A DNA stretch of 64,000 nucleotides, taken from NCBI RefSeq assembly GCF_009931435.1, contig NZ_CP043414.1. One strand, written 5' to 3'. Position numbers and translations under genes: made by a program. The notes under the pieces were generated by a model. The model had not been told where the DNA came from. It was given only the letters and a program-made list of their open reading frames with translations, and made no database searches. The DNA comes from Escherichia coli. Its GTDB lineage: Bacteria; Pseudomonadota; Gammaproteobacteria; Enterobacterales; Enterobacteriaceae. This document shows, piece after piece, positions 2,601 through 20,438 of this stretch. How positions within the stretch are numbered: the stretch's first letter is position 1; each line of letters opens with the position of its first letter.

Positions 2601-2927
<327 letters not shown>

Positions 2928-2945
2928 TCTGTCACGGTGGTCATG

Positions 2946-3494
2946 ATGAGCAAACAACTCACCGCGCAAGCACCTGTTGATCCCATCGTTTTGGGAAAAA
3001 TGGGTTCGTCTTACGGTATTCGTGGGTGGCTCAGAGTGTTTTCTTCCACCGAAGACGCCGAAAGCATTTTTGACTATCAGCCCTGGTTTATCCAGAAGGC
3101 GGGTCAGTGGCAGCAAGTCCAGCTGGAAAGCTGGAAGCACCACAATCAGGACATGATCATCAAGCTGAAAGGCGTTGACGATCGTGATGCGGCGAACCTG
3201 CTGACGAATTGTGAAATTGTCGTGGATTCATCGCAGCTGCCTCAGCTTGAAGAGGGTGACTACTACTGGAAAGACCTGATGGGCTGCCAGGTAATAACCA
3301 CTGAAGGCTACGATCTCGGTAAAGTCATCGATATGATGGAAACCGGATCTAATGACGTTCTCGTCATTAAGGCAAACCTGAAAGATGCGTTTGGTATCAA
3401 GGAACGTCTCGTACCGTTCCTCGATGGGCAGGTTATCAAGAAAGTCGATCTCACTACTCGTTCAATCGAAGTAGATTGGGATCCTGGTTTTTAA
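2946..3494 (+). CDS. rimM: Ribosome maturation factor RimM
   Basis: 182 aa from [10 protein letters not shown]...; operon context. Confidence 0.93.
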
Positions 3495-11120: not shown

Positions 11121-11142
11121 AGTGTTGCCTTTTTGTTATCAA

Positions 11143-11170
11143 TAAAAAAGGCCCCCCGGTTTGGGAGGCC
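11143..11170 (-). terminator. pheA attenuator terminator
   Basis: Minus-strand hairpin ggcctcccaaaccggggggcc followed by U-run, between pheL and pheA. Confidence 0.8.
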
Positions 11171-11218
11171 TTATTGTTCGTCTTCGCATTCTGTTTCACA
11201 CGACGAAACGCCTCCCAT

Positions 11219-11266
11219 TCAGGGGAAGGTAAAAAAGAATGCGAAGAAAAACGGCGTGTGTTTCAT
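11219..11266 (-). CDS. pheL: pheA leader peptide PheL ([15 protein letters not shown])
   Basis: 15-codon minus-strand ORF with seven Phe codons, directly upstream of the attenuator. Confidence 0.9.
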   Translation of the reverse strand: [15 protein letters not shown]

Positions 11267-11320
11267 GTTTGTTTCCTTAGGTGACTTCAGTACAGTACCC
11301 GTACTGTTTTCTCGCTGTCA

Positions 11321-11433: not shown

Positions 11434-12456
11434 TTATGTGGATGAAATGTGGATGCCTCCTTTTAACGGATTAAGTGAAATTGCATCCTGGAGGAAATCA
11501 GGAGCGAGGTGCGCATAGGTCATAGTTTGCTGGATCGTGGCGTGCCCCATAATTCGCTGGAGCGTAAGTATATTTCCTCCATTAATCATAAAGTGAGCAG
11601 CAAAGGTATGGCGTAGAACATGTACAGCCTGTCCTTTTGGTAGGTCTGGCTTAACACTGCGAAGCACCTTGCGATATTCCTCATAATTGACGTCAAACAA
11701 AAGGCCGGATTTCTTTGTTTTGATCTCACTAACAACTTCATCAGAGACAGGAATAATTCGAACTTTTCCGTTTTTAGTTTTGTTAAACGTCACGCGATTA
11801 TTGATGATGTGTTCCGCGCGCAGATTTTTCGCTTCTCCCCATCTCGCCCCAGTACTGAGACAAAGTAGCGTAATCCGCCGGGCATCACCGCTTACTGCAT
11901 CCAGTAATTTGGCGATTTCTTCCATGGTGAGATACGTCATTTCGGGTGATTTTCGTTTCAAAGAGGGGAGGGCGCGGAGCGGATTTTCTCCGTGAAATTC
12001 CCCGGCATTTGCCAGGAGTGTAAACATTCCTCCGAGATCCGACTCATCACGCCGAACAGTAGACTCTTTTACTCCCAAAGATAAACGGGAGCTTCGATAA
12101 GCGGCCATGAAACGAGCATTAATCTGGCTAACCCTTGGATCATTCATTTCTTTGATGATTTTTTTCAACCTGGTTAGAACGCCGTTAGCATATGGCTTAT
12201 TGCGTCCACCCAATTCCCACCATAACGGAAGCAGATCTGAGAGATGACGTTGCTCTGTTGGCTTTTCAAGCCATTCCTTATCGTGCATGTGGCTGAGAAC
12301 ATAACGCTCAAAGGCCACTGCATCTGCCTTTTTCTTAAAAATCCGCTGAATCCGACGTCCACTTCGGCCACGCGGTCTAACATCCACTTTATACCGTCCA
12401 CCATCGAGCGCTTTAATTGCCATTGGCAAGCCCTCCGGTGAAACGAGGAAAGACAT
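11434..12456 (-). CDS. int: Tyrosine integrase, P2 Int-like (start possibly at 12423, MAIKALDGGRY)
   Basis: Similar to P2 Int as I recall it (LSTGARWGEA, HxLRHTFA, YAH motifs). Confidence 0.9.
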   Translation of the reverse strand: MSFLVSPEGLPMAIKALDGGRYKVDVRPRGRSGRRIQRIFKKKADAVAFERYVLSHMHDKEWLEKPTEQRHLSDLLPLWWELGGRNKPYANGVLTRLKKIIKEMNDPRVSQINARFMAAYRSSRLSLGVKESTVRRDESDLGGMFTLLANAGEFHGENPLRALPSLKRKSPEMTYLTMEEIAKLLDAVSGDARRITLLCLSTGARWGEAKNLRAEHIINNRVTFNKTKNGKVRIIPVSDEVVSEIKTKKSGLLFDVNYEEYRKVLRSVKPDLPKGQAVHVLRHTFAAHFMINGGNILTLQRIMGHATIQQTMTYAHLAPDFLQDAISLNPLKGGIHISST

Positions 12457-12489: not shown

Positions 12490-12807
12490 TTAGCCAATTT
12501 TCCTTTCGGATGGGGGTAAGTCCGTTGGCTCTTGCCCATAGTGTGCGAGAGCCGGAGCTATCTGCCCGGATTCAGGCGCAATTTTCCCAGTCATAAACCA
12601 CAACGCATATTTCTCAAATCTGGGGTTGTTTAGTATTTGCTCAATTACTTCAGCATTAGGGATAGTTTTACCGCTTTCATATCTCCACAGAGCATCACGG
12701 TTTAAACCAAGCATTTTTGCTGTATCCGGGAGGCTAGTAAGTCTCTCGCTTTCACGCATGATTTTTATGCGCTCTCCAATAGTCATACGCATGTTGCAAT
12801 TCTCCAA
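12490..12807 (-). CDS. Immunity repressor, P2 C-like
   Basis: C-terminal WFMTGKIAPESGQIAPALAHYGQ block matches P2 C as recalled; divergent from the cox-like gene. Confidence 0.85.
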   Translation of the reverse strand: MENCNMRMTIGERIKIMRESERLTSLPDTAKMLGLNRDALWRYESGKTIPNAEVIEQILNNPRFEKYALWFMTGKIAPESGQIAPALAHYGQEPTDLPPSERKIG

Positions 12808-12887: not shown

Positions 12888-13214
12888 ATGAATGAAGAAC
12901 TATTGAGGGCATTGTTTAAGATCCCAGACCCCATCACCGTCGATGAGTTTTCCCGCCGTACAGGTAAGACCGAATCAGCCGTAAGAAAGTTGGTAGAGCG
13001 TCGACTCATCCCTCTAACTACTGAGCGCGAGGTTTTAGGCGAGGAAGGGAGTTCGCGCCGTCTTCTCATCCTTTGGAATGAGTGGCTCGAAATGGTCTAT
13101 GACGCAACGAAACAGCTTCCTCCTGAGCGTAAAGATTGGCGCAATCACTGGCTTAAGAAAGCCAAGAAGCTGGCGGAAGATTTGGGATTAGGCTTTCTTA
13201 ATTTTGCTGCATGA
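12888..13214 (+). CDS. Cox-like excisionase / early regulator (start at MNEELLRALF)
   Basis: Position opposite the repressor; GGAG RBS before the internal Met; small HTH-like protein. Confidence 0.55.
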   Translation: MNEELLRALFKIPDPITVDEFSRRTGKTESAVRKLVERRLIPLTTEREVLGEEGSSRRLLILWNEWLEMVYDATKQLPPERKDWRNHWLKKAKKLAEDLGLGFLNFAA

Positions 13215-13232
13215 GATGCAGGGAGTTTTGAT

Positions 13233-13574
13233 ATGAAACAGCAACGTAATTCACGCTTTCGTAATGGTGCTGAACGCCACGCTAACCGTTTCGCTACCAG
13301 TGCATCACGCAGCAACATCCGCTACAGCCTGAGTGATACACACGCAACGCCGGATGGCTACCCAGTAAAACAAATCGGCGAGCACGCTTGGCTGATTGAG
13401 AAAGCTGGAATCGTGATCCACAAATGCCCACGCAATCCGTTTACCGGAAACCGCATTTTTGCATTGAGCTGTGGCGACAATCAGTTTGGGCAGGATTTCA
13501 CATTATACGAAGCACTTCGCACGGTTGATCGTCTGCTTCGCGGGCAAAGTTTTATTAAACAGGCTGATTTATAA
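13233..13574 (+). CDS. Hypothetical early-operon protein (113 aa)
   Basis: Co-directional ORF in the early operon. Confidence 0.45.
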   Translation: MKQQRNSRFRNGAERHANRFATSASRSNIRYSLSDTHATPDGYPVKQIGEHAWLIEKAGIVIHKCPRNPFTGNRIFALSCGDNQFGQDFTLYEALRTVDRLLRGQSFIKQADL

Positions 13575-13584
13575 CGGGTGCTTT

Positions 13585-13872
13585 ATGACCAAAGACCATG
13601 CACAAGGTGTATTTATCCGCTTTATTGATTTTCGCGGTGAACTGTTATTACGTGCATCCGCTATTGACGGAGTGACTCCGGCGGGTAAAAACGGAGCCGA
13701 CGAAGCCACTTACGTTTATCTGAACGGCACGCGACTGCTTGTGGAACTTCCGTACCAGACCGTACGAGAAATCATTAGCGAAGCTGAAAAGGCACGCCAA
13801 GTTAATGGCGATGAACCCTATATCGAAATTATTTGTATGGATTCAGAAGCTGAAATACAGAAAGCAGATTAA
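13585..13872 (+). CDS. Hypothetical early-operon protein (95 aa)
   Basis: Internal ATG immediately after the upstream stop. Confidence 0.45.
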   Translation: MTKDHAQGVFIRFIDFRGELLLRASAIDGVTPAGKNGADEATYVYLNGTRLLVELPYQTVREIISEAEKARQVNGDEPYIEIICMDSEAEIQKAD

Positions 13873-13883
13873 AGGGCGTTGTG

Positions 13884-14126
13884 ATGGGCAAAGAATATAA
13901 AACTCTCATTAACAAAGCACTTGAGCGTTTTTATTTTCGCTTAAGTGCATCAGGCGCTCATGCTGAACGTGCAGCCCGTGACTCATTGACCAGGGCAATC
14001 CGGAGTTTGTATGACGTCGCTTTTTACGCTGATGATCTGGATGCACTTAACGAACTTTCCGAGCTGATCTGTGCCGCAGAATGCGGGGAACATATTGAAC
14101 CGTATAAGCTGGGGAATATCGCATGA
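13884..14126 (+). CDS. Hypothetical early-operon protein (80 aa)
   Basis: ORF in early operon. Confidence 0.4.
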   Translation: MGKEYKTLINKALERFYFRLSASGAHAERAARDSLTRAIRSLYDVAFYADDLDALNELSELICAAECGEHIEPYKLGNIA

Positions 14127-14236
14127 GTATATTTATCTCATGGCTTGTTCTGATTATTTCGGTGGCCTGCGCCATTGGAATTATGCGAATTATTCATTCA
14201 GTAAAAAAGATTGAACGTTTTTTCACTGGTGAATAA
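14123..14236 (+). CDS. Small hydrophobic peptide (37 aa, MSIFISWLVLIISVACAIGIMRIIHSVKKIERFFTGE)
   Basis: Found by reading; ATGA overlap with upstream stop; single predicted TM helix. Confidence 0.3.
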   Translation: MSIFISWLVLIISVACAIGIMRIIHSVKKIERFFTGE

Positions 14237-14329
14237 CGATACAAATAAAACATCAAATTAAATAAGAAAACGTGAAAACCATCCGTATTAACGGAGGTAT
14301 TCGCACACGCAAATAACGGAGATACAAAA

Positions 14330-15537: not shown

Positions 15538-15750
15538 ATGAACAAAAAGACCTGGTTTCGCGCATACATGTGGGCGCTGGTATGCGTCCTCGTTTCTCTC
15601 ATTCTGTATGTGGGGCTACTTCCCAGAATGATTTCATCAGACAGCTCCTTCCTGGTATTGCTGGGCATTTTTGTCGCCTTGCTGTACCCGGCGGGCGTTG
15701 TTCGCTTTTTCAGTAACTACATCAAAGCAATTATGGAAACCAAACAATGA
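15538..15750 (+). CDS. Small two-TM membrane protein (70 aa)
   Basis: Two hydrophobic helices; ATGA overlap with downstream SPFH gene. Confidence 0.5.
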   Translation: MNKKTWFRAYMWALVCVLVSLILYVGLLPRMISSDSSFLVLLGIFVALLYPAGVVRFFSNYIKAIMETKQ

Positions 15751-16571
15751 AAAAACTATTACCACTCATCCCTCTCCTGATGACCACACTTCTGGTTGGC
15801 TGTGACCGCGTGGAGCCGGGCAATGTAGGCATCAAAGTCAACAAACTGGGCGACGATAAAGGCGTCGGTGAAGTAGTTGGCGTTGGCCGCTACTGGACAG
15901 GCTGGAATACAGAGGTTTACATCTTCCCGACTTTCAAACAAATGAAGACTTACGATGAGCCGTTCAACTTCCAGATGAGTGACGGCACAACCATCGGCTA
16001 TCACATCGGCGTGGCCTACAAAGTTGATCCATCCAAAGTTACCACTGTGTTTCAGACCTACCGCAAAGGCGTGGATGACATTACCGACACTGACCTGCGC
16101 CAGAAGATCGCCGATGCACTCAACCGACTGGCCAGCAAAATGACCACCGATAAGTTTATCGACGGTGGCAAGTCTGAACTGCTGGATTCAGCACTTAAAG
16201 ACATTCAGTCAGAAATGACACCTATCGGCATTCAGGTCATGAGCCTCTCTTATGTCGGTAAACCGGAATATCCGCCAACCGTTATCGACAGCATTAACGC
16301 CAAAGTCACGGCAAACCAGAAAACCCTGCAACGCGAACAGGAAGTCAAGCAACGCGAAGCAGAAGCCAACATGTTGCGCGCAGAAGCTGCCGGACAGGCT
16401 GATGCCATTCGCACAAAAGCCCAGGCTGAAGCCGACGCCATTCGTTTACGCGGTGAAGCTCTGCGCCAGAATCCCGGCGTTATGGAGCTGGAAGCAATCA
16501 ACAAATGGAACGGCACGCTGCCGCAATACATGACCAGCAACACCGCTGTTCCGTTTGTTCCGGTGAAGTAA
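15747..16571 (+). CDS. SPFH/band-7 (prohibitin/HflKC-like) domain lipoprotein
   Basis: Signal peptide plus lipobox LLVGC; SPFH-like core; Ala/Glu/Arg-rich coiled-coil tail. Confidence 0.6.
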   Translation: MKKLLPLIPLLMTTLLVGCDRVEPGNVGIKVNKLGDDKGVGEVVGVGRYWTGWNTEVYIFPTFKQMKTYDEPFNFQMSDGTTIGYHIGVAYKVDPSKVTTVFQTYRKGVDDITDTDLRQKIADALNRLASKMTTDKFIDGGKSELLDSALKDIQSEMTPIGIQVMSLSYVGKPEYPPTVIDSINAKVTANQKTLQREQEVKQREAEANMLRAEAAGQADAIRTKAQAEADAIRLRGEALRQNPGVMELEAINKWNGTLPQYMTSNTAVPFVPVK

Positions 16572-16940
16572 TTAAACCCGGCCAGTGAAAATCGCTGGCC
16601 GGAGCAGTATCAGGATTTTTTTTAGTATGCCGTTCTCACAAAAAAACCGCTTGCCATGCCGCAATCAGTCAGGTTACATTTCCGCTGCACCTCATAAAAC
16701 GGGTGCCGGGTTTCGCAGCCTGCTGACAACCAAAGCGCACAACCGCGCCAGCGGTTTTTTTGTGCGTACTGTATTGCCACGTCTTTTTCGCACACGAATT
16801 ATGGCGGGGCGTACGGGGCCGACTTCGGTCGGGCCGGGTTCTTTGGTTGCCGGTACTGCGAACCCCGTACGTCTCGCCACCCACAGTTTCGCAGCTCTGG
16901 ATGGTGAGTTTTCAAAACTTACAACCAAAGAGGCTACACC

Positions 16941-17171
16941 ATGGCAAACCGCAAACAGCACCGCGCTATCGCGGAGCGTCGTCACATCCAGACTGAAATC
17001 AACCGCAGACTTTCCCGCGCATTCCGCGTCGCTAAAATCATGCACATCAATATGCTGCATGAGCGTAGCTGCGAACTTTCAAACCTCTACTCATCCGCTG
17101 TTTTCAGTTATCTGGCGGATGATCTGCGCGAGCTTCAGCAGCTCATCCAGCAGCAAAACAAACTCCATTAA
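16941..17171 (+). CDS. Hypothetical small basic protein (76 aa)
   Basis: AAAGAGG RBS. Confidence 0.45.
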   Translation: MANRKQHRAIAERRHIQTEINRRLSRAFRVAKIMHINMLHERSCELSNLYSSAVFSYLADDLRELQQLIQQQNKLH

Positions 17172-17243
17172 TTCCTGTTCCGGGCCTTTCCTGCACCTTG
17201 CGGCGGGAGGCCTTCGCACATCTGTAACAAGAGGATTGCCGCA

Positions 17244-17609
17244 ATGATTCTCGCCAACGACTTTCTTGAATACCTGCTCAACACAGAGCGTGATCTTGCC
17301 GCTCGCGTGCGTGATCGTTATGACATGTACCTGAAATCCCTGCCTGTACCGCAGCTCGCTGACGGAAAGATTGTTATTGATGGTCGCTACATGATTGACA
17401 GCCACGAGGGAAATTACAGGCTTTCCCGCATTGAAGGTGGCACCCCGTCCGTTATTGGCATTTACCAGCGCCCATCCTCTGCAATCGTCGATGTGATTGC
17501 CGACAGCATCCGCATCACACATCGCCATGCCGACACAGAAGACACCGTGCTGGAAATTCAGCGGCTGGCTACAGTCTGCCGCGACACCCTGAATGGCATG
17601 ACGAAGTAA
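17244..17609 (+). CDS. Hypothetical protein (121 aa) upstream of replication gene
   Basis: AGAGGA RBS; position analogous to P2 gene B. Confidence 0.45.
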   Translation: MILANDFLEYLLNTERDLAARVRDRYDMYLKSLPVPQLADGKIVIDGRYMIDSHEGNYRLSRIEGGTPSVIGIYQRPSSAIVDVIADSIRITHRHADTEDTVLEIQRLATVCRDTLNGMTK

Positions 17610-17615
17610 ATCACT

Positions 17616-20438
17616 ATGACGGCAGAGTACATCAGGGACTGGCAACAACCGCGCCACGCAGTGGGGCGTGAAGGAACGGGGATCCCCGCTCCTGAATCCG
17701 CGCTTTCCTCCTGGCTGGATGCCTACCGGGTAGAGAACGAGCGCCGCCAGGAAATGGCTGATGCGGCGTTCTCCGCCACGCCGCTGGGCAACCTGATTAA
17801 TAAAAGCCTGGACGCACAGGAAAAACAGGACAAAACCATCACACTGGCAGGAGACGCCAGAAAACAGGCACGCGGCGCAGTGGATGAAGCCATGACCTCG
17901 CTGCGCCTGCTGCCGTCCTATCTGCGCGATCCGCTTATTCGCCACCTCTCCTTCCTGCGCAAAAAACAGGAAGCCGATCGCCGGAAAGGCAAAAAGAGCT
18001 GGCAGGCGGAACGCTATGCACGCGGAACCCTGCGCAAAATATTCGAACGTCTGGACCGCACCGATCACCGCTGGCTGACACCGGGTTATCGCTCCCTTGC
18101 CGGACGCGAACGCCTGGACGATTTGCTTTACCTGCCGCAGCTCAACAAACACCAGATACAGACGCTGGCCACCATGACGGCGGCGATGTTCAGCAGCACC
18201 TTCGAAAAACTCTGCGATGGCTTTGGCGCGACTGATGGCGAACTGACCATGGATGTAACGCTGAAGGCGTATCAGATGCTGGCCCGCATGGCGTTACACC
18301 TGCACGCCATGCCTCCACATTATGACGCACTGACAACAGACAAAGACCGGAGGAACGAACCGGACACAGAGCTGCTGCCGGGCGCAATCCTTCGCCTGAC
18401 CTGTGCGGAATGGTGGAAACGCAAACTGTGGCTGTTACGTTGCGAGTGGCGGGAAGAACAACTCCGCGCCGCCTGTCTGGTTTCCAGAAAAACATCGCCC
18501 TATCTGAGCCAGGACGCGTTAAGCGAGTTTCGCGCACAGCGCGAGAAAACACGCGATTTCCTGAAAAGTTTCATGCTGGAAAACGAAGACGGGTTCACGA
18601 TTGATCTCGAGACAGTGTATTACGCGGGAGTAAGTAACCCGGTTCACCGTAAGGCAGAAATGATGGCCACCATGAAGGGACTGGAACTTCTGGCCGAAGC
18701 CCGTGGCGACAGAGCGGTGTTTCTGACTGTCACCTGCCCGTCAAAATACCACGCAACAACGGAGAACGGTCATCCGAACCCCAAATGGAACGGGGCCACC
18801 ATGCGCGACTCCAGCGATTACCTGGTTAACACGTTTTTTGCGGCGGTCCGCAAAAAACTGAACCGCGACGGCCTGCGCTGGTATGGCATCCGCACGGTGG
18901 AGCCTCACCATGACGGCACCGTGCACTGGCATATGATGGTCTTTGCTCATCCGGAAGAAATCGACAGCATCGTGGCCATCACCCGCGATATTGCCATTCA
19001 GGAAGACCGCCACGAGCTGGGCAATGATATTACTCCGCGCTTTAAAGTGGAGTATGTCGACGGCTCAAAAGGCACACCAACCAGCTATATCGCGACCTAC
19101 ATCGGGAAAAACCTGGACAGCCGCGCCGTGGATGGCATCGACCCGAAAACGGGCAAACCACGCGTTGACCACGAAACCGGAAAGTCAATGGCCGAGAGCG
19201 TGGAACGCGCCATCGGCTGGGCGCGCCTTCACCGTGTCCGCCAGTTCCAGTTCTTTGGTATCCCCTCCCGTCAGGTGTGGCGTGAACTGCGTCGCCTTGC
19301 CAGCCAGATGGCACGCAACCCGGAAGGCCCGCAACAGCTGAAGGATGACGCAATGGATGCGGTACTCGCTGCCGCTGATGCCGGATGTTTTGCCACCTAC
19401 ATAGAGAAACAGGGCGGCGTTCTTGTTCCACGCAAAGACTACCTGATTCGCACCGCCTACGACCTCGCAGATGAGCTGAACGATTACGGCGAACAGAGCG
19501 TACAGATTTACGGGATCTGGTCGCCACTCATCGGGGAATCCTCCCGTGTGTGCACGCATCCGGATAACTGGAAGCTGGTAAGACGTAAACCGGAAACGGA
19601 AGACAGCGCCCGCGAAAATGGTTTTGACCTTCAGGGCGGCCCTGCCGCCCCTTGGACTCGTGGCAATAACTGTCCCCGTGTACAGGAAACGGACAACAAC
19701 GGGACAGAACAGCCGGAAGAACGGCCAGCACCGTGGCCGCAGCTTCCTGACAGCGTTGACGTGAATGAATGGATGCGCTCACTGAAACGGCACGAACGCC
19801 GGGCGCTGATGCGTTCGCTGCGTGACAAACAGGCAAAAAACAGCAGTGATGAAATGCAGAACTGGACACAGAGCCGCAAACAGCCACGGCCTTTGCCTGA
19901 TAACCACGAGTTACTCGCTAAAGAATGGCGGGAGTCTGCTGAATCTCTCGGCCTGCATATTGGTGAACAGCAGATGCAGCACCTGTTACGGGGCGGCAGT
20001 CTGTACGTTGACGGCAGCATCATTGCACCGCAGGGATTTGAAATTGTACGCAAACCGGATACCCGCCCGGACAGCCGAATCACGCAGCTCTGGCAGCGCC
20101 TGAGCCGTAATCACGGCGTAAGCAGCACGGGGATCCGCCATAACCCGGTCGCCAGCTATCTGGAACAGCTGGGGGCATCAGACCCCGAAGCCGCCGCACG
20201 CCTGGCATCCACACTTCAGCAGGACCAGAACACCATGAAAACCCCCGTTACCGTGCTTTCTGACATGCTGCGCGCCATCCGTGACGCAGAGCACGCACAG
20301 AGAATCAGTGAAACAACTGAACGCGCCCGCCGCAAAGCAGACCTGCTGCGGGGTGGCCTGACCAGTGGAAACAAAAAACAGACAAAAACAGGATTCACAA
20401 ATCCCGTAAATGAGCAAAAAACGCGCCGTGATATATGA
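17616..20438 (+). CDS. Rolling-circle replication initiator (HUH endonuclease, P2 gpA / phiX174 gpA family), 940 aa
   Basis: HUH motif in VHWHMMVFAHP and catalytic Tyr motif YIATYIGKNLD; position after the early operon. Confidence 0.8.
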   Translation: MTAEYIRDWQQPRHAVGREGTGIPAPESALSSWLDAYRVENERRQEMADAAFSATPLGNLINKSLDAQEKQDKTITLAGDARKQARGAVDEAMTSLRLLPSYLRDPLIRHLSFLRKKQEADRRKGKKSWQAERYARGTLRKIFERLDRTDHRWLTPGYRSLAGRERLDDLLYLPQLNKHQIQTLATMTAAMFSSTFEKLCDGFGATDGELTMDVTLKAYQMLARMALHLHAMPPHYDALTTDKDRRNEPDTELLPGAILRLTCAEWWKRKLWLLRCEWREEQLRAACLVSRKTSPYLSQDALSEFRAQREKTRDFLKSFMLENEDGFTIDLETVYYAGVSNPVHRKAEMMATMKGLELLAEARGDRAVFLTVTCPSKYHATTENGHPNPKWNGATMRDSSDYLVNTFFAAVRKKLNRDGLRWYGIRTVEPHHDGTVHWHMMVFAHPEEIDSIVAITRDIAIQEDRHELGNDITPRFKVEYVDGSKGTPTSYIATYIGKNLDSRAVDGIDPKTGKPRVDHETGKSMAESVERAIGWARLHRVRQFQFFGIPSRQVWRELRRLASQMARNPEGPQQLKDDAMDAVLAAADAGCFATYIEKQGGVLVPRKDYLIRTAYDLADELNDYGEQSVQIYGIWSPLIGESSRVCTHPDNWKLVRRKPETEDSARENGFDLQGGPAAPWTRGNNCPRVQETDNNGTEQPEERPAPWPQLPDSVDVNEWMRSLKRHERRALMRSLRDKQAKNSSDEMQNWTQSRKQPRPLPDNHELLAKEWRESAESLGLHIGEQQMQHLLRGGSLYVDGSIIAPQGFEIVRKPDTRPDSRITQLWQRLSRNHGVSSTGIRHNPVASYLEQLGASDPEAAARLASTLQQDQNTMKTPVTVLSDMLRAIRDAEHAQRISETTERARRKADLLRGGLTSGNKKQTKTGFTNPVNEQKTRRDI

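What the first reader, a model, noticed from the sequence alone, without database searches (positions are those of the whole stretch)
14123..14236. Possible unannotated 37-codon hydrophobic peptide gene in the early operon
An ATG overlapping the stop of the preceding gene opens a 37-codon frame encoding a single predicted TM helix with a basic C-terminal tail. Small membrane peptides in phage early regions are often toxins, holin-like modulators or exclusion factors and are easily missed.
Basis: seen in the sequence. Interest (0 to 1): 0.25.

Follow-up and report, generated by a model that had tools for sequence, protein, structure and literature searches.

The report
Small prophage membrane peptide gene
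The 37-codon frame is a real, evolutionarily conserved gene for a tiny membrane-spanning peptide in the early operon of a P88-type (P2-family) E. coli prophage; databases already annotate it as a hypothetical or membrane protein, and its function is unknown.

Summary
ATG 14123 overlaps the TGA of the upstream DUF4754 gene (ATGA) and opens a 37-codon frame, MSIFISWLVLIISVACAIGIMRIIHSVKKIERFFTGE. It is not unannotated: RefSeq lists it as WP_000021656.1 (hypothetical) and phage P88 as gp07 "membrane protein".

Comparative evidence shows a real gene:
- It is the only frame without stops in 36/36 variants.
- dN/dS is 0.22, versus 1.1-1.4 in four other frames and 0.31 in the wobble-sharing antisense frame.
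- Independent lineage pairs show excess synonymous change (p=5e-5).
- The ATGA overlap and an SD-like tract persist in eight lineages in which DUF4754 falls to 26% identity.

The family is tiny: 17 representatives among 1.84 billion proteins, essentially all E. coli P88-like prophages. It has no Pfam, PHROG, NCBIfam or PADLOC match, no counterpart in P2 or 186, and no literature.

Best reading: a single-pass N-out/C-in inner-membrane peptide made during lytic development and translationally coupled to DUF4754. It would act through one conserved helix face on another membrane helix. It occupies the slot where phage 186 carries fil and dhr. A holin or exclusion role is disfavoured by context; toxicity is untested. 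This is an ordinary but solid candidate small protein, of low-to-moderate interest.

The parts
14123..14236 (+). 37-codon gene (stop included) for a small hydrophobic peptide, identical to RefSeq WP_000021656.1 and P88 gp07.
   Evidence: Selection tests.
14123..14126 (+). ATGA start/stop overlap with the upstream DUF4754 gene, the signature of translational coupling.
   Evidence: Present in 95/95 related loci and in all 8 deep lineages.
14111..14116 (+). SD-like GGGGAA inside the 3' end of DUF4754, 7-8 nt before the ATG.
   Evidence: Pairing with the anti-SD is -5.5 kcal/mol here and -4.2 to -8.5 in 8 lineages, although the overlapping DUF4754 residues differ. Neighbouring genes range from -3.3 to -10.7.
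14129..14194 (+). Codons 3-24, the predicted transmembrane helix IFISWLVLIISVACAIGIMRII.
   Evidence: KD19 maximum 2.68. AF2 gives a continuous helix over residues 1-34. S6, W7, L10, G19, I23 and I24 are invariant.
14195..14233 (+). Codons 25-37, the conserved basic/amphipathic tail HSVKKIERFFTGE, predicted to be cytoplasmic.
   Evidence: K28, I30, E31 and F34 are invariant across deep lineages. pN is 0.06-0.13 versus pS 0.35-0.44 in the independent pairs.
14203..14208 (+). A6 run. Loss of one A gives a 45-aa allele with the tail KRLNAFSLANN...
   Evidence: P0079. The exact sequence and a cluster mate occur on about 16 contigs. The in-phase A_AAA_AAG heptamer is not conserved.
14218..14223 (+). 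T6 run. Loss of one T gives a widespread 45-aa allele ending ...KKIERFSLVNNDTNKTSN.
   Evidence: 8/95 loci, in at least 3 sequence backgrounds. The exact protein occurs on at least 1000 contigs, including complete chromosomes.
13884..14126 (+). DUF4754 gene (80 aa), the obligate upstream neighbour.
   Evidence: Pfam PF15946, E=2.8e-54. Adjacent to the peptide gene in every locus examined. AF2 pLDDT 90.5, helical bundle, no fold match.
12888..13872 (+). The rest of the conserved first early block: cox (12888-13214), DUF4761 (13233-13574) and a 95-aa phrog_3800 gene (13585-13872).
   Evidence: The same order appears in P88 and in all relatives.
14282..14295 (.). Conserved hairpin TCCGT-ATTA-ACGGA in the spacer after the gene. 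It marks the boundary between the conserved block and the variable downstream genes.
   Evidence: One copy per locus and 31 distinct versions. The stem is 100% paired with one double change, and the loop is variable. It holds the same relative position as the annotated P2 terminator and 186 tR1.

Best explanation
The frame is a genuine protein-coding gene. It is the last gene of the conserved first block (cox, DUF4761, phrog_3800, DUF4754, peptide) of the early lytic operon of a P88-type (Xuanwuvirus, P2-family) prophage. Ribosomes finishing DUF4754 reinitiate at the overlapping ATGA, helped by an SD-like tract. The product is a 37-residue single-pass inner-membrane peptide: a 2-residue periplasmic N-terminus, a TM helix at about residues 3-24, and a basic cytoplasmic tail. 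It would therefore be made when the prophage is induced or the phage infects, not in the stable lysogen. Its conserved residues lie on one stripe of a continuous helix (S6, L10, S/A13, A17, I24, K28, E31, T35). The most likely mode of action is helix-helix packing, with itself or with a host or phage membrane protein, which modulates a membrane-associated host process early in lytic growth. It occupies the operon slot where phage 186 carries the host-directed genes fil and dhr. Shown here: gene reality, purifying selection, coupling signals, hydrophobicity, restricted distribution. Inferred: topology, timing of expression, mode of action. My probability that this is a real, selected membrane-peptide gene is about 0.9. 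My probability that it specifically works as a helix-packing modulator is about 0.35.
For: Annotation and distribution:
- The same CDS is annotated in RefSeq, P88 and other phage records.
- The 601-bp region occurs in 1363 of 5426 complete E. coli genomes.

Coding signal:
- It is the only frame of six without stops in 36/36 variants.
- dN/dS is 0.22, versus 1.1-1.4 in four other frames and 0.31 in the antisense frame sharing its wobble position, which carries stops in 27/36.
- Three phylogenetically independent pairs pool to 27.5 synonymous and 33.5 nonsynonymous differences, against an expected synonymous fraction of 0.227 (p=5e-5). Both the TM segment and the tail are constrained.

Deep conservation:
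- 41-aa homologues (P0080, P0081, P0085) keep the motif SW..A[IV]G..[RK]II..K.IE.[FL]FTG[DE].
- Their upstream partner drops to 26-40% identity.
- ATGA is present in 95/95 loci, and the SD-like pairing is -4.2 to -8.5 kcal/mol in all 8 lineages.

Membrane character and helix face:
- KD19 is 2.68 and all positive charges are C-terminal.
- AF2 predicts a single helix over residues 1-34.
- Conservation periodicity peaks at about 103-105 degrees (p=0.004 at 102.9 degrees).

Context:
- The gene lies downstream of cox on the same strand, with no promoter above chance level.
- P2 and 186 have an annotated terminator after their first early block, and 186 has fil and dhr immediately before it.
Against: - There is no direct evidence of translation or membrane localisation, and no literature mentions the gene.
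- No homologue has a known function: Pfam, PHROGs, NCBIfam and PADLOC give no hit.
- A frameshift allele that replaces the last residues (FFTGE becomes SLVNNDTNKTSN) is widespread, so the extreme C-terminus is not indispensable, or many prophage copies carry an altered-function allele.
- The helical-stripe periodicity is a post hoc test. It is only p=0.08 at 100 degrees.
- Peptide pLDDT is only 52-77.
- The analogy with 186 fil/dhr is positional only. No sequence similarity survives testing.
- Repression in the lysogen is inferred from P2 and 186, not shown for this element.
Confidence: 0.6

Rival explanations
1. Membrane-damaging 'kil'-type toxin. The peptide oligomerises in the inner membrane and dissipates membrane potential or arrests growth when the early operon fires, like type I toxins (Hok, TisB, Ldr) or small phage host-killing peptides.
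For: The size, strong hydrophobicity and basic C-terminal side fit such peptides. A conserved single helix face could be a self-association interface. The gene lies in an operon expected to be silent in lysogens, where a toxic product would be tolerated.
Against: It has no promoter of its own and no antisense RNA or Rfam element over the gene. Instead it is translationally coupled inside a long operon whose later genes (replication protein A and others) need a living, energised host. The tail motif K.IE.FFTG is conserved well beyond what simple membrane insertion needs. Toxicity was not tested.
Confidence: 0.2
2. Membrane anchor or partner of DUF4754. The two products form a complex, and the peptide tethers the soluble three-helix DUF4754 protein to the inner membrane.
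For: The two genes are adjacent with a 4-base overlap in every locus seen, while the genes on both sides vary. Coupling favours co-translation at a fixed ratio. No peptide homologue was found away from a DUF4754-like gene.
Against: A DUF4754-linker-peptide fusion with a paired alignment gave pTM 0.53 and no gain in confidence for either part (versus), though this is a weak test. L095 and L096 carry identical peptide genes next to DUF4754 genes that differ at pN 0.42, so a recombination joint sits exactly between them and there is no sign of co-adaptation. DUF4754 evolves about twice as fast as the peptide.
Confidence: 0.2
3. Lysogenic-conversion or superinfection-exclusion factor expressed from the prophage.
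For: Small membrane proteins can block DNA injection by other phages (general knowledge). The prophage type is very common, occurring in 25% of complete E. coli genomes.
Against: The gene is embedded in the cox-led early operon, with no promoter-like site above chance (5 found versus 5.2 expected in the region). It is not in a moron-like cassette. No PADLOC hit.
Confidence: 0.07
4. Not a functional protein: a chance ORF, or a frame kept open only so that ribosomes keep translating up to the spacer (anti-polarity), with the peptide itself irrelevant.
For: Many ORFs of this size arise by chance. Frameshift alleles that change the tail are common.
Against: The amino-acid sequence is under purifying selection (dN/dS 0.1-0.3, p=5e-5), with invariant residues across lineages that are near saturation at synonymous sites. 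The start, the overlap and the SD-like tract are all retained.
Confidence: 0.03

Closest known systems
Phage P88 gp07 'membrane protein' (YP_009113050.1) and RefSeq WP_000021656.1
   Same: Identical 37-aa sequence, in the same position after DUF4754 with the same 4-base overlap.
   Different: None; it is the same gene. Those records give only a predicted name, with no experiment or function.
Phage 186 fil (cell-division inhibitor) and dhr (host-replication inhibitor)
   Same: Small, overlapping, non-structural genes at the end of the first block of the early lytic operon of a P2-family phage, immediately before a hairpin or terminator (tR1).
   Different: No sequence similarity. For Fil the shuffle p is 0.03 for the window peptide only and 0.1-0.64 in other lineages. 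For Dhr p is at least 0.57. DUF4754 versus Fil gives hhalign probability 0.06%. Fil and Dhr have no strongly hydrophobic segment.
Bacterial small single-pass membrane regulators under 50 aa (AcrZ, MgtS, MgrB, SgrT class; from general knowledge)
   Same: About 30-50 residues and one TM helix. They act by binding a larger membrane protein, and conservation is concentrated on one helix face.
   Different: Those are chromosomal genes with their own regulation. This one is phage-borne and operon-embedded, and no partner is known. No sequence relationship was detected in any library.
Type I toxins (Hok, TisB, Ldr, ShoB; from general knowledge)
   Same: Short hydrophobic peptide with a charged C-terminal side.
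   Different: No dedicated promoter, no antisense RNA and no Rfam hit over the gene. It is translationally coupled within a polycistronic operon.

Membership tests
Protein-coding gene under selection (versus chance ORF) | Open frame retained in relatives, with an excess of synonymous over nonsynonymous change in that frame only. | tested here: met
   36/36 variants have no stop. dN/dS is 0.22, versus 1.1-1.4 in four other frames and 0.31 in the wobble-sharing antisense frame, which has stops in 27/36. Independent pairs give p=5e-5.
Translationally coupled operon gene | Start codon overlapping the upstream stop, plus an SD-like element, both conserved. | tested here: met
   ATGA in 95/95 loci. 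Anti-SD pairing is -4.2 to -8.5 kcal/mol in 8 lineages. Actual coupling was not measured.
Single-pass membrane peptide | One hydrophobic stretch of about 20 residues able to span the bilayer, with charge asymmetry. | tested here: met
   KD19 is 2.68. Positive charges are C-terminal only, and the 41-aa forms add KRRK, ERRK, KRHK or KHHK. Localisation and topology cannot be tested with these tools.
Holin / antiholin | Encoded in the lysis cassette next to endolysin and spanin genes, and expressed late. | tested here: not met
   The gene lies in the early operon between cox and replication gene A.
Type I toxin-antitoxin | Own promoter and an overlapping or adjacent antisense RNA that controls translation. 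| tested here: not met
   No promoter above chance and no Rfam family over 14123-14236. The gene is coupled to the upstream ORF.
Type I toxin-antitoxin | Toxic on overexpression. | not testable with these tools
   Requires an induction experiment.
Lipoprotein / secreted protein signal peptide | A positively charged n-region, and a lipobox [LVI][ASTVI][GAS]C or a signal peptidase I site. | tested here: not met
   There is no basic residue before the hydrophobic core. C16 is replaced by M or F in deep lineages, and position -3 is S or A.
Phage 186 Fil / Dhr | Sequence homology. | tested here: not met
   Only the operon position is shared.
Programmed -1 frameshift site (dnaX type) | A conserved in-phase X_XXY_YYZ heptamer with stimulatory elements. 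| tested here: not met
   A_AAA_AAG is in phase in the window, but it is broken by a synonymous GTG in about 21 loci and is absent from all 41-aa lineages.
Anti-phage defence system component | A match to a known defence protein family. | tested here: not met
   No PADLOC hit for the peptide or for six neighbouring proteins.

The most novel reading that the evidence does not exclude
The peptide founds a new family of phage-encoded small membrane regulators, specific to the P88/Xuanwuvirus lineage. On that reading, during early lytic growth it binds and inhibits a host inner-membrane machine (for example a divisome, transport or quality-control component) through its conserved helix stripe and K.IE.FFTG tail. 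It would be a membrane-embedded functional analogue of 186 Fil/Dhr, carried by about a quarter of sequenced E. coli strains.
Probability: 0.3. Interest if true: 0.45.

Novelty: new member of a known kind. Interest (0 to 1): 0.22.

Why it matters
Small membrane proteins are routinely under-studied. This one is clearly real and under purifying selection, and it sits in a prophage type found in about 25% of complete E. coli genomes, including the uropathogen UTI89. No functional family covers it. If it targets a host membrane process during induction, it would be a compact new tool and an example of phage host takeover. If not, it is one more conserved hypothetical gene. The practical value of this check is that the gene can be treated as genuine (it is already annotated), and that the holin and exclusion-factor ideas can be given lower priority.

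Tried and rejected
1. Family libraries. The peptide has no hit in Pfam, PHROGs, NCBIfam or PADLOC.
I replaced it with tblastn, exact-cluster look-ups and an exhaustive profile search.
3. The long 103-128-aa 'DUF4754' proteins looked like possible natural fusions. They are frameshift artefacts of draft assemblies. The phage 503458 record is riddled with frameshifts and was not used.
4. Homology to 186 Fil. A local match, IMRIIHSVKK versus IIRIVHFVIK, gave p=0.03 for the window peptide only and was not reproduced in other lineages. It is rejected as chance. DUF4754 versus Fil gave nothing.
5. Function through the partner. DUF4754 folds confidently (pLDDT 90.5), but its best PDB match has E about 1.3 and the matches are designed helical bundles. 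DUF4761 and the 95-aa protein have no relatives with solved structures.
6. A DUF4754-linker-peptide fusion model gave no confident complex.
7. dnaX-like programmed frameshifting at A_AAA_AAG is not conserved.
8. A lipoprotein or signal peptide is ruled out: there is no lipobox and the Cys is not conserved.
9. A small coding ORF across the spacer hairpin (GTG at about 14274, 14 codons) lacks a start codon in some lineages, and the loop changes show no coding pattern.
10. Literature. No paper mentions the accession, locus tag, sequence, DUF4754 or DUF4761. The P88 and phiSM papers say nothing about this gene. A search for 186 fil/dhr returned only noise.

Full report
**1. What is there**

The window carries a complete-looking P2-family prophage inserted beside pheA. 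The pheA leader lies at 11142-11267 and the integrase at 11434-12456 on the - strand. An HTH repressor (12490-12807, - strand) faces a rightward operon:
- cox, 12888-13214
- DUF4761, 13233-13574
- a 95-aa phrog_3800 gene, 13585-13872
- DUF4754, 13884-14126
- the frame in question, 14123-14236
- a 93-nt spacer
- a string of small genes
- a membrane-protein/SPFH-lipoprotein pair
- IsrK-like and C4-like RNA genes
- a 'derepression' ORF
- replication gene A, 17616-20438

The closest deposited phages are P88, Citrobacter phage phiSM and other Xuanwuvirus members. The 601-bp stretch around the finding is 100% identical to E. coli UTI89 and occurs in 1363 of 5426 complete E. coli genomes.

**2. Observation check**

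ATG 14123 overlaps the TGA of DUF4754, giving ATGA. There are 37 codons and a TAA stop at 14234-14236. The product is MSIFISWLVLIISVACAIGIMRIIHSVKKIERFFTGE.

The hydrophobic core is strong: the best 19-residue Kyte-Doolittle window scores 2.68. Every positive charge lies on its C-terminal side.

The word 'unannotated' is not correct for the public record. RefSeq annotates precisely this CDS as UTI89_RS28590 / WP_000021656.1, 'hypothetical protein'. P88 annotates it as gp07 'membrane protein', and vB_EcoM-569R5 as 'putative membrane protein'. The exact protein is on more than 1000 contigs in the protein collection.

**3. Is it more than chance?**

An ORF of this size is not significant by itself (105 ORFs of at least 25 aa in 7 kb), so I relied on comparative data.

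In 95 related loci:
- 81 have the 37-aa form and 4 have a 41-aa form.
- 8 have a 45-aa form caused by loss of one T in a T6 run near the 3' end.
- 2 are broken.
- All 95 keep ATGA.

Among the 36 distinct in-frame sequences:
- Variable sites fall 13/7/25 by codon position (chi-square p=0.004).
- dN/dS is 0.22 in this frame and 1.1-1.4 in four of the other five frames.
- The antisense frame that shares its wobble position gives 0.31, but it has stops in 27/36.
- This is the only frame never interrupted.
- The neighbouring accepted gene DUF4754 gives 0.11 by the same method.

An exhaustive profile search of 1.84 billion cluster representatives found only 17 hits. These include divergent 41-aa members:
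- P0080: MSVFLSWVILIISVLMAIGIMRIIEALKNIESLFTGEERRK
- P0081: MNILISWLILILAIICAVGTMRIINGIKTIESLFTGDKRHK
- P0085: MSIFMSWVVLVLAIIFAIGIVKIITVIKAIEALFTGDKHHK

Their loci show the same architecture, an 80-aa DUF4754-like gene followed by ATGA and the peptide, while the flanking genes vary.

Across eight lineages, synonymous divergence in the peptide gene reaches 0.5-0.8 per site and nonsynonymous divergence stays at 0.13-0.28. DUF4754 drifts to 26-40% identity. Three phylogenetically independent pairs pool to 27.5 synonymous and 33.5 nonsynonymous differences against an expected synonymous fraction of 0.227 (p=5e-5). Both the TM segment and the tail are constrained.

An SD-like purine tract 6-10 nt upstream is kept in all eight lineages (-4.2 to -8.5 kcal/mol against the anti-SD). 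Neighbouring genes range from -3.3 to -10.7. The tract is kept even though the overlapping DUF4754 C-terminal residues differ: LGNIA, LGSAA, TEVAA, IEELA, IEGET.

**4. What it is**

It is a very small, lineage-restricted protein family. All named members come from E. coli or occasionally Salmonella, Shigella or Citrobacter, and all are labelled hypothetical or membrane protein. It has no Pfam, PHROG, NCBIfam or PADLOC model. The searchable literature does not mention it. The P88 and phiSM papers do not discuss it. The early operons of P2 and 186 contain no comparable small hydrophobic ORF.

The consensus is M-[SN]-[IV]-[FL]-x-S-W-x-x-L-x-x-[SA]-x-x-x-A-x-G-x-x-[RK]-I-I-x-x-x-K-x-I-E-x-[FL]-F-[TS]-[GD]-[DE].

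Several features bear on topology and shape:
- There is no basic n-region and no conserved lipobox Cys, which argues against a signal peptide or lipoprotein.
- Charge asymmetry predicts N-out/C-in. The 41-aa forms add KRRK, ERRK, KRHK or KHHK at the C-terminus.
- AlphaFold2 models residues 1-34 as one continuous helix at moderate confidence (pLDDT 52-77).
- Conservation is periodic, peaking at about 103-105 degrees per residue. The permutation p is 0.004 at 102.9 degrees and 0.08 at 100 degrees.
- That periodicity places S2, S6, L10, S/A13, A17, I20, I24, K28, E31 and T35 on one stripe. This suggests a helix-packing interface, but it is a post hoc test.

**5. How it most likely works**

Shown: a selected coding frame, coupling signals, a membrane-type helix, and a constant position as the last gene of the conserved first early block.

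Inferred from the P2 and 186 paradigm (records):
- The operon is driven by the early promoter upstream of cox and is repressed in lysogens.
- The peptide is therefore made on induction or infection, by reinitiation from DUF4754.

I propose that it inserts into the inner membrane and uses its conserved face and tail to bind another helix, either itself or a host or phage membrane protein. That would alter a host membrane-associated process early in lytic growth. I put the probability of this specific mode at about 0.35.

A positional analogy supports this. In 186, the two small overlapping genes just before the first internal terminator tR1 are fil (blocks division) and dhr (depresses host replication). 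The DUF4754-peptide pair occupies that slot. There is no sequence similarity.

Rivals:
- A membrane-damaging kil/type I-toxin-like peptide (0.2). The composition fits, but there is no own promoter and no antisense RNA, and early depolarisation would hurt the phage's own replication.
- An anchor or partner for DUF4754 (0.2). The linkage is universal. Against it, the fusion model gives no confident complex (pTM 0.53). In addition, L095 and L096 have identical peptide genes next to DUF4754 genes differing at pN 0.42, so a recombination joint lies exactly at the gene boundary.
- An exclusion or conversion factor (0.07), disfavoured by operon context and by the lack of a promoter above chance.
- A non-functional frame (0.03), contradicted by the selection tests.

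**6. Caveats**

The 45-aa allele (T6 to T5; tail ...KKIERFSLVNNDTNKTSN) is not sequencing noise. That exact protein is on at least 1000 contigs, including complete chromosomes. It arose in at least three sequence backgrounds. A rarer allele from the A6 run also exists. So the last four or five residues can be replaced in nature, or many prophages carry an altered allele.

The in-phase A_AAA_AAG heptamer looked like a dnaX-type slippery site, with a -1 stop two codons later. It is broken by synonymous changes and is absent from deep lineages, so I reject programmed frameshifting.

**7. Side observation**

Thirty to fifty nucleotides after the stop lies a hairpin, at window 14282-14295: TCCGT-ATTA-ACGGA.
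- It occurs once in every related locus, always at the border between the conserved block and the variable downstream genes.
- The stem is TCCGC/GCGGA or the double-changed TCCGT/ACGGA, with no single mutants among 31 versions, and the loop varies.
- Formal covariation support is thin: one compensatory event, with 34/500 shuffles as good.
- On the + strand it has the layout of the annotated P2 terminator and 186 tR1 (hairpin + GGGC(A)TTC...), but with a degraded U-tract.
- On the - strand it is followed by a U-rich tract and folds more stably in divergent lineages (-18.6 to -24.0 versus -11.7 to -14.5 kcal/mol). The scan tool lists it there as terminator-like.

Which strand matters is unresolved.

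**8. Verdict**

This is a genuine, already-annotated, uncharacterised small membrane-peptide gene, a new member of a known kind. The result is solid but ordinary. Interest is about 0.2, rising to about 0.45 if the peptide proves to be a host-targeting membrane regulator.

Noticed in passing
window 14262-14312 (stem 14282-14295): A conserved spacer hairpin, TCCGY-NNNN-RCGGA, is preceded by two A-tracts. There is one copy per related locus, at the boundary between the conserved early block and the variable downstream genes. It holds the same relative position and layout as the annotated P2 terminator and 186 tR1, but its + strand U-tract is degraded. On the - strand it looks like an intrinsic terminator and folds more stably. 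Only one compensatory event supports the structure.
   Followed up: partly
window 16687-16761 and 16797-16884 (+): Rfam hits above gathering score to IsrK (65.9 bits) and C4 antisense RNA (87.1 bits), plus a weak c4-a1b1 target hit. They lie just upstream of a 76-aa 'Derepression'-type ORF (16941-17171). This suggests a P1/P7 c4-ant-like antisense control of an antirepressor inside this P2-family prophage. The 220-aa ORF at 16585-17247 that overlaps them is probably spurious.
   Followed up: no
L095 versus L096, locus coordinates 2762-3126: Two E. coli prophages carry identical peptide genes and spacers, but their DUF4754 genes differ at 42% of nonsynonymous sites. A recombination joint therefore falls essentially at the ATGA gene boundary, a clean example of mosaicism at gene borders.
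   Followed up: partly
window 14203-14208 (A6) and 14218-14223 (T6): Two homopolymer runs in the tail-coding part of the gene generate natural frameshift alleles. Both read into the same alternative frame and end 45 aa from the start. The T-run allele is on at least 1000 contigs and arose in at least 3 sequence backgrounds.
   Followed up: partly
window 15538-15750 and 15747-16571 (+): A second small membrane protein (70 aa, two hydrophobic segments, phrog_1130) is coupled by ATGA to a 274-aa SPFH-domain lipoprotein in the same early operon. The pair is present in some P88-like phages and absent in others, for example vB_EcoM-569R5.
   Followed up: no
window 11142-11267 (-) and 11434-12456 (-): The pheA leader (Rfam Phe_leader, 131 bits) and pheA lie directly next to the prophage integrase. 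This P88-type prophage therefore sits at a site beside pheA, not at the locus where the UTI89 copy (100% identical over the 601-bp query) lies with a different immunity region.
   Followed up: no
window 13884-14126: DUF4754 gives a confident AlphaFold model (pLDDT 90.5) with two long helices, probably a small helical bundle, and a disordered C-terminal tail that overlaps the SD of the peptide gene. It has no significant match among solved structures.
   Followed up: yes
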